Under the pieces are notes generated by a model. That model saw only the letters and a program-made list of their open reading frames with translations. It had not been told where the DNA came from and searched no databases. A program made the translations under genes and the position numbers. Below are positions 52,701 to 55,628 of a stretch of 64,000 bases of DNA, piece after piece. The DNA lies in assembly GCA_036677675.1 (NCBI GenBank), contig JAVBWC010000042.1, forward strand, positions 354 to 64,353. The letters run 5' to 3'. Origin of the DNA: Clostridiaceae bacterium (GTDB lineage Bacteria; Bacillota; Clostridia; Clostridiales; Clostridiaceae). The first letter of the stretch is position 1, and each line of letters begins with the position of its first letter.

Positions 52701-55628
52701 TGATGGTATCTTATCTACAGATGAAGGTACCTCAGGTTCTGTTTTAGATGATGAAGATTCATTTGTCCAAGGTTTTGGACCATACTTTTCTGCTGTCTTC
52801 GGATATGGCTGTCCTAATGGCGGCGCTTTAGGTGCCTCGTCTTTGATAGGACTTCCATCTAATGATATAGGTCCTCCATCAAAAGGATTTCTGTGTTCAG
52901 GATCATAATCAAGCTCACTCCAGTGCTTTCCATTTCGGTCATAGCCTTCGCTGTTATAACCACTCCAGTGGTATCCATCCTTGCCATATCCCTGCCTATT
53001 ATATCCCCATGGATCATATCCATCACGGTTGTAGCCCTTGTAATCAAAGCCCTGTTTGTCATAGCCATCCTTATCAAAACCATCTTTATTGAATCCATCC
53101 TTGTCATATCCGTATTCGTCAAGACCTTCTTTCTGTCTTCCTTCCCTGTTATAACCCTCACGATCATAACCGTTTTTATCATAGCCTTCTTTATCATAGC
53201 CTTCTCTATCAAAGCCATCCTTACTTAAGCCATTTCTTCCATAACCATCCTTATCATAACCCTGCCTGTTAAAGCCTTCTTTATCATAGCCAGCTGCATT
53301 ATATCCTTCAACATCATATCCACTGCGATTATAACCTTTTTTATTCATTCCATTGATGTCAAAACCTTCTCTGTCATAGCCTTCTAAATTAAAACCATTT
53401 CTGTTATAGCCTTCCTTATCAAAGCCAGCTTCGTTGAAACCTTCCTTATCATATCCTTCACTATTAAATCCATCACGGTCATAACCTTCATCGTCAAATC
53501 CCTGTCTGTCATAGCCTTCTGAATTATAACCATTTTTGTCATAACCTTCTTCATCAAAACCAGCCTTATTGAAGCCTTCCTTATCAAAGCCAGCTTCGTT
53601 GAAACCTTCCTTATCATATCCTTCACTATTAAATCCATCACGGTCATAACCTTCACCGTCAAATCCCTGCCTGTCATAACCTTCTGAATCATAACCATTT
53701 CTGTCATAACCTTCTTCATCAAAACCAGCCTTATTGAAGCCTTCCTTATCATATTCTACTGAATCGAATCCTTGGGAATCATATTCTTCACCAGCAGCTT
53801 CACTATCCTTTATTTCAAAGTCTTCTTCAATTATTAAGCCATCCTCTGATTCTATAGCCTCATTTTTTCCAAAATCTTTATTCACCTGCAGACTATCGTC
53901 GATTTCCAAACCATCCTCTATTATAAGACCATCTTCAATTTCAATTCCTATGCCTTCTTCTATTATTAAATCTTCACCAGTCTTTAACTCATTGCCCATA
54001 TTGTCTTCAGTTAAAGGCTCTTCTATTATTAAATCCTGATCTTTGCTCAATACGTCCTCTATTATCAGTCCATCATCCACAGATATGCTTATAGGCTCCT
54101 GTGAATAAATAATATTTTCTGTTGTTCCAAATTCATTGAAACCTTCAGCTTCATTTATTAAAATCTCCGGCTCCTCTATAGAATAACTATCTGTTTTACG
54201 CCTTCTTCTACCCAATTGAGCAACTTCATTAGCTCCAGAGGAGGATGTACTTCCTGTTCTTCCCTGCTGTGGAATTGTTTCACCGGGTGATGCTGCCCCG
54301 CCTGTTGATCCTCCAGCACCTCCAAAAGAAACTCCACCATCTGGTATTGGTCCTCCTCCAGATATCCCTGCGCCTCCAGGAGGTATAACACCACCACCCA
54401 GTCCTGCAAGTCCAGCTAACACTGTTGCAATCAAGCCTGGCACTGCTACTCCAACTACCGCCTCAGTAGAGTTTTCCGGACCAGGGATTGTACCTACAGA
54501 ACCAACACCTGCTGGACTTTCCTGAGAAATACTGCTTCCTGATTTACCAGTATTTCCTGAAGTAGTCTTTCCTAAATCATTTAAAGAGCCACTGGTAACC
54601 TGAAAATGGGGTGTAGCCTTTACCTGTCCCATACCTCTTCCGCCTGATTCCTGATTTTGTGACCAGGTTGCAGGATTGGAATCTATTATAGTATATGTTC
54701 CTGCAGGTATAACAATATTAGGATATACTTCCCAATTGGCATTTTTCACTCCACCCATACCATCTGTACCTTTAGCCTGCCAAGGTCCATATACAACACC
54801 ATTCTGGTCCTTTAAAGCTATTGTTCCAAGAGTATCCCCTTTGGCATTATTCCAGTGATAATCCCTGATATAAGTAACAAGATGTGGAACGTTGATTGTA
54901 AAGGTAGTTGGTGCTGTAGGTCCGTTTTTTACTCCCGCAATATTATCAGTATTTGATACAGCTGCTGCTTCCTCCAAAGCTTTACCTTTTACAACCACAC
55001 CGGTGGATGTATTTGAAGTTTCCTTCTCTTGACCAGACTGCTTATTATCTGATACAGGCTGCTGAATATCTGGTGCAGGCTGGCTTAATAATCCGTTTTT
55101 ATCCAGACCGTTTACAAGCTGCTGAGCAAACTTCTTAGCAGTTGCTATATCCCCTGAACTGCTGTTACCTGTTTCATAAATCTCCACAGTTACAAGATAA
55201 TCCGGCAGAACTACTGTAATACCAATACCATCTGTCATAGTATACTCTCTTACTTCTCCGCCTTTTATAGACGTTGTTTTAACACCAGTGCTTCCTGCAA
55301 CCTGGGTAATATGCTCAATTATAGTTTTCATTTGACTTTCATCAATAGGTCCAACTACTGCAATCATGCTTTCTCCATTTGCATAATCTCCTCTTGCCAT
55401 ATGTGCTTTTAAGTTAAGACCCGTTACATCTTCAGTACCAAAATCAAATTCTGGAGAACTTATGTTATTGTTTGCAACTTCAGTAACTACATCCCCAATA
55501 CCGGCAGCTTTTACTGTGCTTGGAAAACAAAACACCATAAACATCAATACCATAATTGATATTGATATACTGGTTTTTAAAGATTTTTTACACTTATTTT
55601 TTTTTCTTATCATATGAAAAACTGACAA
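49734..55628 (-). CDS. Giant (~1,960 aa) membrane-anchored repeat protein with polymorphic-toxin-like C-terminal half
   Basis: Signal peptide, extracellular domains, TM at ~54400-54460, acidic repeats, 57 [YF][DN]xxG repeats, coiled coil, 59-aa helical duplication, DxD-containing terminal domain; TTG start at 55628 after AGGAGG (ORF track extends to 55682). Confidence 0.85.
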   Translation of the reverse strand: MSVFHMIRKKNKCKKSLKTSISISIMVLMFMVFCFPSTVKAAGIGDVVTEVANNNISSPEFDFGTEDVTGLNLKAHMARGDYANGESMIAVVGPIDESQMKTIIEHITQVAGSTGVKTTSIKGGEVREYTMTDGIGITVVLPDYLVTVEIYETGNSSSGDIATAKKFAQQLVNGLDKNGLLSQPAPDIQQPVSDNKQSGQEKETSNTSTGVVVKGKALEEAAAVSNTDNIAGVKNGPTAPTTFTINVPHLVTYIRDYHWNNAKGDTLGTIALKDQNGVVYGPWQAKGTDGMGGVKNANWEVYPNIVIPAGTYTIIDSNPATWSQNQESGGRGMGQVKATPHFQVTSGSLNDLGKTTSGNTGKSGSSISQESPAGVGSVGTIPGPENSTEAVVGVAVPGLIATVLAGLAGLGGGVIPPGGAGISGGGPIPDGGVSFGGAGGSTGGAASPGETIPQQGRTGSTSSSGANEVAQLGRRRRKTDSYSIEEPEILINEAEGFNEFGTTENIIYSQEPISISVDDGLIIEDVLSKDQDLIIEEPLTEDNMGNELKTGEDLIIEEGIGIEIEDGLIIEDGLEIDDSLQVNKDFGKNEAIESEDGLIIEEDFEIKDSEAAGEEYDSQGFDSVEYDKEGFNKAGFDEEGYDRNGYDSEGYDRQGFDGEGYDRDGFNSEGYDKEGFNEAGFDKEGFNKAGFDEEGYDKNGYNSEGYDRQGFDDEGYDRDGFNSEGYDKEGFNEAGFDKEGYNRNGFNLEGYDREGFDINGMNKKGYNRSGYDVEGYNAAGYDKEGFNRQGYDKDGYGRNGLSKDGFDREGYDKEGYDKNGYDREGYNREGRQKEGLDEYGYDKDGFNKDGFDKDGYDKQGFDYKGYNRDGYDPWGYNRQGYGKDGYHWSGYNSEGYDRNGKHWSELDYDPEHRNPFDGGPISLDGSPIKDEAPKAPPLGQPYPKTAEKYGPKPWTNESSSSKTEPEVPSSVDKIPSVSTADEVSKITPESPESDSGIIGPEDPMNTLKNHGVGEEGKASGLPIPEEDIPESDTENIQTSSDSTSVPESSDIQQEADKISEASQTEEVPQEPESMVITTSVHGAQTLVVKDPTTGQWVDSETGAVIDLEAHQKNLEQQIKDYQDYIQRNDELEKTGQSAMQQALDKIKKDSKAEIDAIQKEIDKRNMEQLKWEQQHLEWEQQQAEKANSWGSILAHTAANAGKDIVETAKDVKDAAVYVADTTAEAGSDVLQTAKNIWDGGLKGAVQNIQDAYVGTQKVVNDTYEGTKKALKDAEEAAEDTVSYIYNNPEEAWENTKKATIETGKTILKTGAAITKGVYNTVTDPEKVWEFAKEQLGGNNFENALDPNRSLTSRIGQVLVGTGKLYTSILTLGQGGAVIKSGAGKISGVVDDLIGAGAKKAGLVDDVLGAAAKKTGGKAAAEASDDVMKASIAKAQKEARYKVESAKINVQAKEASKKADSLIDDFKKYEKQTMETNLKDEAFVKAQKAGAEKVDKLKDASIKLAENPNSAEAKQAYKKALEAVEKDKHAMKKIEDLRDEAFWKGREEGAKKVDKLREAQKNLVQNPDSADARKAYQEAMEAVQKDKHAMHSLNDLETNADKLKKARSEYVKNPTDETKKAFQDAKKAAQNDMESGDDVRKTFNANMKEKAEVADRNAKERIAREYGVKEEQVKTVGATNTMDTSGKADPRGFAKKNSGAQRTTGTEAGKYTEKDINIGEVDGKKVSYDIDKTYRVQVGEYVDPKTGVRTPIYKDIPASETKKIFGEEYYKQFHDGKLPMKLDKDGKTFIVDDDAVNKFSKEMDVSAVDHTSAEGYGGGDFDLKEMLKKDGSVKKLNDLEAGTKTIEFKANEWENQAAEVRKHFGDLAKAESWSEESMRQTTKQFNNQILEQIKAKNLENMAKGKNPLEVPDDLFTAIKVMEKVGKPQGGISAVEAEKILKSMGLTPKKVSEEVSSIFESMQKLK
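52929..53783 (-). repeat. Coding tandem repeat: 57 x 15-nt units encoding [YF][DN]xxG, including a 165-nt higher-order duplication
   Basis: Counted from the translation; 855 nt; identical motif at 53551 and 53716 gives the 165-nt period. Confidence 0.92.

What the first reader, a model, noticed from the sequence alone, without database searches (positions are those of the whole stretch)
52929..53783. 57 uninterrupted [YF][DN]xxG pentapeptide repeats
Seen: 285 aa of strict 5-residue periodicity (aromatic, Asp/Asn, x, x, Gly), located after the TM segment. This differs from the classical A[DN]LXX pentapeptide family and from RTX nonamers. Inference: a regular solenoid or extended zig-zag rod, possibly Ca2+-dependent, acting as a spacer or ruler or as an aromatic ladder for polymerisation.
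Basis: partly seen in the sequence, partly recalled or inferred. Interest (0 to 1): 0.68.

Follow-up and report, generated by a model that had tools for sequence, protein, structure and literature searches.

The report
Uncharacterised aromatic pentapeptide-repeat rod
The 57 five-residue repeats are real and belong to a widespread repeat type for which I found no description; it most likely folds into a regular coil of three repeats per turn, here serving as a length-variable rod in the tail of a giant membrane protein.

Summary
Window 52929-53783 (- strand) encodes residues 634-918 of a 1982-residue ORF: 57 pentads in one register, consensus [YF]-[DN]-[KR]-[ED]-G, with Gly in 56 of 57.

No family library claims it. 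The only resemblance is a sub-threshold match to Pfam PF25296, the unresolved DotG/IcmE decapeptide. The repeat type is nevertheless common: 4025 protein clusters, fused to many unrelated domains.

Among 68 orthologues from anaerobic Firmicutes the array has 11-122 units, with one register-breaking indel in 64 checked. The last ~33 units are conserved position by position. The N-proximal units are generic and include a recent 165-bp duplication.

AlphaFold2 predicts the array confidently (pLDDT 94-97), with no helices or sheets and no Foldseek match in the PDB.

New here: in 92 arrays from 67 unrelated proteins, the charge at position 4 of a unit is anticorrelated with the charge at position 3 three units later (r -0.22, z -9.9). 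No other lag shows this. That implies a 15-residue structural period, which fits a solenoid with three pentads per turn and fits neither a disordered linker nor a flat zig-zag.

The spacer or ruler role is inferred. Calcium dependence is unsupported.

The parts
49734..55682 (-). Whole ORF of 1982 aa, a giant type I membrane protein. The true start is probably Met24 at nt 55613, because orthologues begin MIRK(R/K)NKCK.
55503..55613 (-). N-terminal basic plus hydrophobic segment ending VKA/AG. Predicted Sec signal peptide or signal anchor (residues 24-60).
   Evidence: Kyte-Doolittle scan; read from the sequence
54471..55502 (-). Conserved ectodomain (residues 61-404), predicted as an alpha/beta domain followed by an all-beta domain. 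It has only weak, non-significant structural similarity to CBM6/CBM32 jelly rolls and to TiME/Dip2269-type sandwiches.
54378..54467 (-). Transmembrane segment (residues 406-435), highly conserved among orthologues.
54195..54377 (-). Gly/Pro-rich stretch ending in RRRRK (residues 492-496). This is the positive-inside signal that places the tail in the cytoplasm (inference).
53784..54194 (-). Strongly acidic region with five DGLIIE(D/E)-type motifs (residues 497-633).
52929..53783 (-). The finding: 57 in-register [YF]-[DN]-x-x-G pentads (residues 634-918), net charge -34.
53424..53783 (-). Expandable N-proximal part of the array (units 1-24). It contains a tandem 11-unit (165-bp) duplication across 53424-53753 (TRF: 90% matches over 2.4 copies). 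In orthologues this part is generic (FDKEG-like) and varies in number.
52929..53423 (-). Conserved core of the array (units 25-57). Each unit has its own identity, conserved across orthologues (for example YGRNG, YDVNG, WDREG, xQREG, FDYEG, YDPWG, YGKDG, YHWSG). There are no indels.
52608..52928 (-). Region after the array: the KHWSE cap (52914-52928) and two conserved short motifs, PPLGQPYPKTAEKYGPKPWT (52764-52823) and IIGPEDPMNTL (52608-52640), in a Pro/Ser/Glu-rich linker. AF2 confidence is low here.
49737..52292 (-). Swappable C-terminal module (residues 1131-1982): a coiled coil, helical repeats and a 320-residue end domain. Few orthologues share it. It is also found on proteins with a different membrane anchor, one of them with an RDD-family domain.

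Best explanation
The array is a folded, regular, acidic rod built from G-[YF]-[DN]-[KR]-[ED] pentads that coil with three pentads (15 residues) per turn.

Inferred anatomy:
- The aromatic residue and the Asx form the short bridge-forming segment of each side.
- x-x-Gly forms the corner.
- The aromatic side chains fill the core.
- The Lys/Arg at position 3 of one coil clamps the Asp at position 2 and the Glu/Asp at position 4 of the coil below.

In this protein the rod sits in the tail behind the single transmembrane segment, predicted to be cytoplasmic. It separates the membrane-proximal acidic region from a swappable C-terminal module.

The C-proximal ~33 units (about 11 turns) plus a Trp/His cap are a fixed, position-specific core. 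This core is probably a folding nucleus and possibly a docking surface. The N-proximal units are an expandable part whose number changes through in-frame recombination between 15-nt-multiple DNA repeats, which tunes the rod length.

Shown: the periodicity, register conservation, copy-number variation, the conserved core, the 15-residue coupling, confident prediction and no PDB match. Inferred: the triangular solenoid geometry, cytoplasmic location and the spacer/ruler role.
For: - Periodicity far beyond chance.
- 4025 clusters in 1.84 billion representatives carry the repeat. It is fused to TrbI/VirB10, UvrD helicase, RNase T, sigma-70, DnaJ, VWA and PQQ domains, so it behaves as an autonomous module.
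- The 68 orthologues have 11-122 units. Close relatives whose ectodomain is about 88% identical have 15, 26 and 37 units, against 57 here.
- Only one internal register-breaking indel was found in 64 orthologues.
- Units -30 to +2 are conserved position by position, including the 'x' positions.
- AF2 gives mean pLDDT 84.9, and 94-97 over 120 residues. DSSP finds isolated bridges only at pentad positions 1 and 2.
- Foldseek against the PDB returns 0 matches at E<=10.
- Of the top 40 MI-APC pairs in 47 non-redundant orthologues, 14 lie at separations of 14-17 residues, against 1.9 expected.
- In 92 arrays of 67 unrelated proteins, charge at position 4 of unit k against position 3 of unit k+3 gives r=-0.217 (z=-9.9). 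Position 2 against position 3 of unit k+3 gives r=-0.170 (z=-7.7). The swapped +/- pair is enriched 3.15-fold, and no other lag shows a signal.
- The residue-level charge correlation has its clearest outlier at separation 14 (z -8.2), followed by 16 (z -4.5); a few other separations reach |z| of 3-4. 72 of 89 arrays are negative (p=3e-9).
Against: - No coordinates were available to me, so I could not check that the AF2 model contains the i/i+14 contact, nor measure the rise per turn.
- AF2 can be over-confident on perfect repeats, and pTM is only 0.47.
- DSSP calls almost no strands, so 'beta-solenoid' is a loose label.
- Foldseek may simply be blind to such a fold.
- The spacer role is inferred from length variation alone. 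The strong conservation of the core, and the deletions within it in a few orthologues (11-26 units), do not fit a pure ruler neatly.
- The cytoplasmic topology rests on a signal-peptide-like N-terminus, one hydrophobic segment and an RRRRK motif 57 residues downstream of it.
- The function of the whole protein and of its operon is unknown.
Confidence: 0.5

Rival explanations
1. The array is an intrinsically disordered, elastomeric or 'sticker-spacer' low-complexity region. Evenly spaced aromatic stickers with Gly and charged spacers would act as an entropic tether or drive condensation.
For: The composition (Gly 59, Asp 44, Tyr 35, Glu 29 of 285) resembles elastomeric and prion-like low-complexity domains. 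It sits between other low-complexity regions. It is promiscuously fused to many domains.
Against: AF2 pLDDT is 94-97. A specific lag-3 charge compensation (z about -10) has no reason to exist in a disordered chain. Register is strictly conserved, with only one internal register-breaking indel in 64 orthologues. The x residues are conserved position by position in the core. A net charge of -34 opposes self-association.
Confidence: 0.15
2. The array is mainly a docking or oligomerisation scaffold rather than a spacer. Several copies would bundle, like the proposed DotG collar or cage, or the conserved core would bind partner proteins of the operon.
For: The 33-unit core is conserved even at surface positions. 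The gene sits in an operon conserved in Dehalobacter and Sporomusa, with two small membrane proteins, zinc-ribbon proteins, LemA and DUF2207. Pentad arrays occupy the DotG-repeat position in some TrbI/VirB10 homologues. DotG is proposed to form a cage or collar.
Against: No partner has been identified. The generic N-proximal units and the 11-122 range argue that much of the array is not a specific interface. Some orthologues keep only 11-15 units.
Confidence: 0.2
3. The array is an extracellular, Ca2+-stabilised roll of RTX type. This requires the tail to be outside the cell.
For: There is an invariant Asp/Asn and Gly in every unit and a high negative charge. Some other proteins carry the array behind signal peptides or lipoprotein signals.
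Against: There is no RTX/HemolysinCabind match. Predicted topology puts the tail in the cytoplasm. The same repeat occurs in helicases, exonucleases, sigma factors and DnaJ proteins. The acidic residues are paired with Lys/Arg by covariation, which points to salt bridges rather than metal sites.
Confidence: 0.05
4. The array length is an assembly artefact, or the repeat is evolutionary junk of no consequence.
For: The genome is a draft of 91 contigs, and the array contains a 165-bp near-identical duplication. Reads could not be checked.
Against: The ORF is intact over 5.9 kb. 68 orthologues carry the same architecture. Most units are diverged at DNA level but conserved as protein. At worst the copy number is wrong by 11 units.
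Confidence: 0.03

Closest known systems
DotG/IcmE central decapeptide repeat (Pfam PF25296 'Decapeptide'), Legionella/Coxiella type IVB secretion
   Same: Both share the G-[FY]-[STND] core and a hydrophobic residue every fifth position. Both are long arrays of variable number placed between a membrane anchor and a C-terminal domain. It is the only PDB and Pfam sequence match (E 2e-10 alone, 8e-19 with the profile). Some orthologues of this protein pass the PF25296 threshold (P0002, 61.8 bits), and some TrbI/VirB10 homologues carry pentads where DotG has decapeptides.
   Different: DotG has a 10-residue period, [KR]-x-A-G-[FY]-[STND]-x-x-x-[LI], with Gly only every tenth residue. It is periplasmic, and AlphaFold confidence is reported as low. 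This array scores 12.8-18.1 bits against a cut-off of 45. The DotG repeats are unresolved in every structure and have no established function, so the match explains nothing about mechanism.
Classical pentapeptide-repeat proteins (A(D/N)LXX; Rfr fold; e.g. MfpA, Qnr; Pfam PF00805/PF13599/PF13576)
   Same: Both have a five-residue period, a central Phe/Leu-type residue, an adjacent Asp/Asn and a solenoid architecture in which each pentad is one side of a coil.
   Different: The register and consensus differ: here Gly comes before the aromatic residue and Asx after it, with no small residue at i-2. There is no HMM match. Covariation indicates three pentads per turn rather than four. No Rfr-fold structure was retrieved by Foldseek.
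Left-handed beta-helix hexapeptide repeats (LpxA type) and the 15-residue-coil beta-helical antifreeze protein of spruce budworm (from my own knowledge)
   Same: Both are triangular coils with three sides per turn. The antifreeze protein also has 15 residues per coil.
   Different: There is no sequence similarity, and neither was retrieved by Foldseek. The all-aromatic core and charged clamp proposed here are inferred, not seen.
Elastin-like polypentapeptide (VPGVG) beta-spiral model and other elastomeric pentapeptide repeats (from my own knowledge)
   Same: Both have a pentapeptide period with one Gly-closed turn per unit. The classical beta-spiral model also has about three pentamers per turn.
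   Different: Elastin-like repeats are hydrophobic, dynamic and uncharged. This array is highly charged, has an invariant aromatic-Asx pair, and shows residue-specific covariation typical of a fixed fold.

Membership tests
Classical pentapeptide-repeat family (PF00805, PF13599, PF13576, PF01469) | Match to a Pfam Pentapeptide model | tested here: not met
   No Pentapeptide model is listed at E<=1 for the whole protein or for the array alone. As a positive control, the DotG fragment did hit Pentapeptide_4.
Classical pentapeptide-repeat family (PF00805, PF13599, PF13576, PF01469) | Consensus A(D/N)LXX, with Asx before the central Leu/Phe and a small residue at i-2 | tested here: not met
   Here Gly precedes the aromatic residue and Asx follows it.
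Classical pentapeptide-repeat family (PF00805, PF13599, PF13576, PF01469) | Four pentads (20 residues) per coil, the Rfr quadrilateral beta-helix | tested here: not met
   Coupling is at lag 3 (separations of 14-16 residues), with no signal at lag 4. Foldseek retrieved no Rfr structure.
PF25296 Decapeptide (DotG/IcmE repeat) | Score at or above the curated cut-off of 45 bits | tested here: not met
   12.8 bits for the whole protein, 18.1 bits for the array alone, 13.3 bits in the genome scan. The DotG fragment scores 294.7 bits. Orthologue P0002 scores 61.8 bits; P0005 and P0153 score 34-35 bits.
PF25296 Decapeptide (DotG/IcmE repeat) | Ten-residue period [KR]-x-A-G-[FY]-[STND]-x-x-x-[LI] | tested here: not met
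   The period is 5, with Gly in 56 of 57 fifth positions and an aromatic residue in 53 of 57 first positions. The DotG motif is taken from the paper read.
PF25296 Decapeptide (DotG/IcmE repeat) | Variable-number array between a membrane anchor and a C-terminal domain | tested here: met
   11-122 units among orthologues, between the transmembrane segment and the C-terminal module. This is a functional resemblance, not proof of homology.
RTX nonapeptide Ca2+-binding repeats (PF00353) | GGxGxDxUx nonapeptide and an HMM match | tested here: not met
   The period is 5, and no HemolysinCabind match appears at E<=1.
RHS / YD repeats (PF05593, TIGR01643) | HMM match to the roughly 20-residue YD repeat | tested here: not met
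   There is no match in this ORF. The neighbouring ORF 58042..63618 matches strongly (1.3e-91) in the same searches.
Polymorphic toxin architecture (considered for the whole protein) | Conserved N-terminal part with a swappable C-terminal module | tested here: met
   Residues 1-1130 are shared by 60-88 homologues, and residues 1130-1982 by only 1-3 of the fetched set. The same end module occurs on proteins with a different membrane anchor, one with an RDD-family domain.
Polymorphic toxin architecture (considered for the whole protein) | Recognisable toxin domain at the C-terminus and export of that end | tested here: not met
   There is no Pfam, NCBIfam, PADLOC or PDB match for the C-terminal 850 residues. 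Predicted topology leaves it in the cytoplasm.
Polymorphic toxin architecture (considered for the whole protein) | Cognate immunity gene immediately downstream that varies with the toxin type | not tested
   The downstream genes (340 and 370 aa) have no family match. I did not examine whether they co-vary with the C-terminal type.

The most novel reading that the evidence does not exclude
The G-[YF]-[DN]-x-x pentad array is a protein-repeat fold with no solved example: a solenoid with three pentapeptides (15 residues) per turn, an all-aromatic core, and an inter-coil clamp in which Lys/Arg at position 3 bridges Asp at position 2 and Glu/Asp at position 4 of the coil below. Bacteria would use it as a rigid rod whose length is set by copy number; earlier notes of this scan also report it in archaea, which I did not check. 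In this family of giant membrane proteins it would fix the distance between the membrane and a swappable C-terminal module.
Probability: 0.4. Interest if true: 0.8.

Novelty: new variant of a known kind. Interest (0 to 1): 0.6.

Why it matters
Tandem-repeat solenoids are a known kind of module: pentapeptide repeats with four units per turn, hexapeptide repeats with three, and RTX rolls. This pentad is none of them. It has no Pfam family of its own and no solved structure, and I found no paper that describes it. Yet it occurs in thousands of protein clusters, fused to helicases, exonucleases, sigma factors, VirB10-like secretion components and giant membrane proteins.

The charge-compensation signal found here gives a concrete, falsifiable structural rule: position 4 of unit k contacts position 3 of unit k+3, giving 15 residues per turn. 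A single crystal structure or a set of charge-swap mutants could test it.

If the rule holds, it would:
- add a new class to the repeat-fold catalogue;
- give a natural, length-programmable rigid spacer for protein engineering;
- give a handle on the unresolved repeat region of DotG-like secretion proteins, some of whose homologues carry this pentad instead of the decapeptide.

Tried and rejected
Searches that gave nothing useful:
- Family libraries (Pfam, NCBIfam, PHROGs, PADLOC) gave nothing above threshold for the giant protein.
- PDB sequence searches found only the unresolved DotG repeats and chance GGYDG motifs in designed Kelch proteins.
- Full-text searches for the motif strings, for PF25296 and for generic descriptions found no paper on this repeat.
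- Rfam found nothing on either strand of 42000-64000.

Points I considered and set aside:
- The + strand ORFs inside the array (for example 52893..53228 and 53734..54039) are antisense artefacts of the repeat.
I rejected it because coupling is specific to units three apart, not one or two apart.
- A three-unit higher-order DNA repeat cannot explain that signal. The lag-3 cross-correlation (-0.217) is larger than the within-unit value (-0.099), and the DNA higher-order repeat here is 11 units.
- The ectodomain model gave only weak CBM/jelly-roll and TiME/Dip2269-like similarity (E>1e-3), which is too weak to name a ligand.
- The C-terminal module has homologues only among unnamed proteins.
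Full report
**1. The observation**

The finding lies inside a single 1982-residue ORF on the minus strand (49734..55682). The given coordinates, 52929-53783, translate exactly to residues 634-918.
- The 285 residues form 57 pentads in one register. Position 1 is Tyr 33, Phe 20, Leu 2, Met 1, Arg 1. Position 2 is Asp 34, Asn 18. Position 3 is mostly Lys/Arg. Position 4 is mostly Glu/Asp/Asn/Gln. Position 5 is Gly in 56 of 57 units.
- 49 units match [YF][DN]xxG strictly. 20,000 shuffles of the same residues give a mean of 1.5 and never more than 6.
- The Gly codons are spread evenly over GGT, GGA and GGC, and the average DNA identity between units is about 58%. The exception is one tandem duplication of an 11-unit (165-bp) block, which TRF scores at 90% matches over 2.4 copies.
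- The periodicity is therefore old and maintained at the protein level, with one recent expansion.
- No other ORF in the 3.04-Mb, 29.5% GC genome has such an array.
- The short ORFs on the opposite strand are repeat artefacts. Rfam finds no RNA family on either strand.

**2. The protein around it**

From the sequence and a hydropathy scan, the protein has these parts in order:
- a signal-peptide-like N-terminus (the real start is probably Met24, as in orthologues);
- a 340-residue ectodomain;
- one strongly conserved hydrophobic segment (residues 406-435);
- a Gly/Pro-rich stretch ending in RRRRK;
- an acidic region with five DGLIIE motifs;
- the pentad array;
- a Trp/His cap (YDPWG...YHWSG...KHWSE);
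- a Pro/Ser/Glu-rich linker with two conserved short motifs (PPLGQPYPKTAEKYGPKPWT and IIGPEDPMNTL);
- an 850-residue helical C-terminal module.

By the positive-inside rule the tail, and so the array, is cytoplasmic. This is an inference.

The ectodomain is predicted with moderate confidence (pLDDT 78) as an alpha/beta domain followed by an all-beta domain. It has only weak similarity to CBM6/CBM32 jelly rolls and TiME/Dip2269-type sandwiches, and no PDB sequence match even with a profile.

**3. Relatives of the whole protein**

- A search of 5.8 billion proteins found 68 full-length orthologues. All are annotated as hypothetical. They come from Syntrophomonadaceae, Dehalobacter, Sporotomaculum, Desulfotomaculaceae, Pelotomaculum, Desulfosporosinus, Dehalobacterium and Sporomusa.
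- Residues 1-1130 are shared by 60-88 of the fetched homologues. The C-terminal module is shared by only one to three.
- The same end domain also occurs on proteins with different membrane anchors; one carries an N-terminal zinc ribbon and an RDD-family membrane domain. So the C-terminus is swappable, as in polymorphic toxins, but it contains no recognisable toxin domain.
- The gene sits in an operon that is conserved in Dehalobacter and Sporomusa: two small membrane proteins, the giant protein, one or two proteins of unknown function of about 360-460 aa (one with a weak zinc-ribbon match), LemA and DUF2207, followed in Dehalobacter and in this window by a 232-aa zinc-ribbon protein.
- In the window's own lineage the gene is absent from the 15 congeners that could be scored (one more genome could not be scored). 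It is present in one of 20 other genera of the same family.
- The region has 36-40% GC against a genome average of 29.5%. This suggests horizontal acquisition.

**4. Repeat-number survey**

- In the orthologues the in-register array has 11 to 122 units and always ends at the conserved GYHWSG cap.
- Three relatives whose ectodomain is about 88% identical to this one have 15, 26 and 37 units, against 57 here. Copy number therefore changes faster than the flanks.
- Walking upstream from the cap in steps of five residues, only one of 64 orthologues shows an internal frame-breaking indel: a single four-residue unit in P0158. Two others lose register only at the array boundary.
- The array has two parts. 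Units -30 to +2 relative to YHWSG each have their own identity, conserved across orthologues even at the 'x' positions (YGRNG, YDVNG, YNRSG, WDREG, FDREG, xQREG, FDYEG, YDPWG, YGKDG). Units further upstream are generic FDKEG-like and variable in number.
- In this protein, units 25-57 are the conserved core. Units 1-24 are the expandable part and contain the 165-bp duplication.

**5. The repeat as a class**

- A HMMER scan of 1.84 billion cluster representatives with the 285-residue array found 4025 clusters at E<=1e-3 and 292 at E<=1e-30.
- Among 75 of the best hits, the pentads are fused to TrbI/VirB10, UvrD-type helicase, RNase T exonuclease, sigma-70 region 4, DnaJ, VWA, PQQ propeller, transglutaminase and other domains.
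- In the best 150 hits, a hydrophobic segment precedes the array in 49 of the 142 proteins where a dense array could be delimited, and 89 have none. The module therefore works on both sides of the membrane, which argues against a general calcium requirement.
- It is frequent in absolute numbers but rare per genome: 2 of 200 other sampled genomes of the phylum have an array at E<=1e-10.

**6. Comparison with catalogued repeats**

- No Pentapeptide, RTX or YD model matches.
- The only hits are Pfam PF25296 'Decapeptide' (12.8 bits for the protein and 18.1 for the array, against a cut-off of 45) and NCBIfam DotG/IcmE (18 bits, cut-off 750). The only PDB sequence match is the middle region of Legionella DotG.
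- A DotG fragment scores 294.7 bits on PF25296, so that family is the DotG decapeptide.
- Published work gives the DotG motif as [KR]-x-A-G-[FY]-[STND]-x-x-x-[LI]. It reports low AlphaFold confidence, no solved structure of the repeats, a variable number between species, and a proposed flexible 'collar' or 'cage' role.
- The pentad shares the G-aromatic-polar core and the hydrophobic beat of five. It has Gly and an aromatic residue in every unit instead of every second one.
- Some orthologues with Ala-rich units pass the PF25296 threshold (P0002, 61.8 bits), and the precomputed tables flag PF25296 in 16 of the 68 orthologues. Three TrbI/VirB10 homologues carry pentads where DotG has decapeptides.
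- I therefore treat DotG as the closest known relative in position and behaviour. This array fails its membership test, and the comparison supplies no mechanism.

**7. Structure prediction**

- I ran AlphaFold2 on residues 719-958 with an ungapped alignment of 30 orthologues. The mean pLDDT is 84.9: 94-97 over the first 120 residues, about 83 over the conserved core and cap, and below 50 in the linker.
- DSSP finds no helices and no sheets, only isolated bridges. Every bridge is at pentad position 1 or 2. Several bridge positions are 15 residues apart (161/176, 167/182, 181/196, 187/202).
- Foldseek finds no PDB chain at E<=10 and nothing meaningful among predicted viral structures.
- I had no access to coordinates, so I could not measure the geometry.

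**8. An independent test of the fold by covariation**

- In 47 non-redundant orthologues aligned over the conserved core, 14 of the 40 strongest MI-APC column pairs lie 14-17 residues apart, against 1.9 expected.
- I then took 92 arrays (2381 units) from 67 proteins outside this family, each from a different 50%-identity cluster.
- The charge at position 4 of unit k is anticorrelated with the charge at position 3 of unit k+3: r=-0.217, z=-9.9 against shuffles of units within each array. The value is -0.212 (z=-8.3) with one array per protein.
- The charge at position 2 of unit k shows the same relation with position 3 of unit k+3: r=-0.170, z=-7.7.
- No other lag from 1 to 9 shows a comparable signal.
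- The reversed pair (basic at position 4, acidic at position 3 three units later) is enriched 3.15-fold.
- 72 of 89 arrays are individually negative (p=3e-9).
- In a residue-level charge correlation over separations 1-47, the clearest outlier is 14 (z=-8.2), followed by 16 (z=-4.5); a few other separations reach |z| of 3-4.
- The giant-protein family shows the same effect (r=-0.298).
- A three-unit DNA super-repeat cannot produce this, because the within-unit correlation of the same two positions is only -0.099.
- The simplest reading is a physical contact between successive turns of a coil with three pentads (15 residues) per turn.
- This excludes a disordered linker. It also excludes a flat zig-zag of hairpins, in which a unit touches only its immediate neighbours.

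**9. How it most likely works**

*Shown:* the array is a conserved, register-locked, confidently predicted module with a 15-residue structural period, a fixed C-proximal core and cap, and an N-proximal part that expands and contracts in whole units.

*Inferred:*
- Each pentad forms one side of a roughly triangular coil. Gly is at the corner and the aromatic side chain is in the core.
- The Lys/Arg of position 3 bridges the Asp of position 2 and the Glu/Asp of position 4 in the coil below.
- At the 4.8 Å rise typical of beta-solenoids, 57 units would give a rod of about 9 nm, and the orthologue range of 11-122 units would give about 2-20 nm.
- In this protein the rod would hold the swappable C-terminal module at a set distance from the membrane-proximal acidic region.
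- The conserved core may serve as a folding nucleus and possibly as a docking surface.

I put about 0.7 on 'folded solenoid with a 15-residue period' and about 0.5 on the whole statement including the spacer role.

**10. Rivals**

- A disordered or elastomeric low-complexity region (0.15). It is contradicted by the coupling, the register conservation and the prediction.
- A docking or oligomerisation scaffold rather than a spacer (0.2). It is compatible with the conserved core and the operon, but untested.
- A calcium-stabilised extracellular roll (0.05). It is contradicted by the predicted topology, the cytoplasmic fusion partners and the salt-bridge-type covariation.
- An assembly artefact (0.03).

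**11. Novelty and verdict**

The repeat is real and widespread. No family library or paper I could search describes it, and it has no solved structural counterpart. Earlier notes of this scan had flagged the same class in other genomes. I reproduced their main points independently: it is widespread, PF25296 is the nearest family, prediction is confident, and there is no PDB match. I differ on geometry, because the coupling analysis points to three units per turn rather than a flat ladder.

It is a new variant of a known kind, the solenoid repeats. The function of the host protein and its operon remains unknown. Interest 0.6.

Noticed in passing
window 42809-56928 (- strand): The giant gene sits in a co-oriented cluster: two small membrane proteins upstream (55652..56152 and 56257..56928), then downstream a 340-aa protein, a 370-aa protein with a C-terminal zinc ribbon, a 386-aa protein with an N-terminal zinc ribbon, LemA, DUF2207 and a 232-aa double-zinc-ribbon protein. 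The core order (two small proteins, giant, a protein of about 360-395 aa, LemA, DUF2207) recurs in Dehalobacter sp. DCM and Sporomusa ovata. No function is known.
   Followed up: partly
window 44000-56000: This stretch has 36-40% GC against 29.5% for the genome. The giant gene is absent from the 15 congeneric species that could be scored and present in only one other genus of the family. The operon looks horizontally acquired.
   Followed up: partly
window 58042-63618 (- strand), and 57639-58100: Immediately upstream is a 1858-aa RHS/YD-repeat protein with CBM96/DNRLRE, DUF6531, RHS repeats and an Rhs-associated core, followed by a small ORF that could encode its immunity protein.
   Followed up: no
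window 49737-52292 (- strand): The C-terminal 850 residues of the giant protein are a swappable module. The last 340 residues recur (34-70% identity) on proteins with different N-termini, one of which has an N-terminal zinc ribbon and an RDD-family multi-pass membrane domain. No known domain matches.
   Followed up: partly
window 53784-54194 (- strand): Between the transmembrane segment and the array lies an acidic region with five copies of a DGLIIE(D/E)-type motif (short hydrophobic triplets flanked by acids). Orthologues have similar GIIID/GILID motifs in variable number.
   Followed up: no
protein P0193 (orthologue), residues ~793-832: One orthologue has a 40-residue Lys/Glu/Ala-rich insert inside the array that keeps the five-residue count (8 x 5) without the pentad motif.
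   Followed up: no
proteins P0021 and two others of alignment A1: Some TrbI/VirB10-type conjugation or secretion proteins carry G-[YF]-[DN]-x-x pentads in the position where Legionella DotG has its decapeptide repeats.
   Followed up: partly
window 55613-55682: The longest ORF starts 23 codons upstream of the start used by orthologues and overlaps the end of the upstream gene. Met24 (nt 55613) is the likelier start.
   Followed up: partly
locus L006 (genome G035) and protein P0231: A second subtype of the giant protein has a different ectodomain and ends its array with GYDKFGVHKDYKKK instead of the Trp/His cap. The cap is therefore not universal for the array.
   Followed up: no
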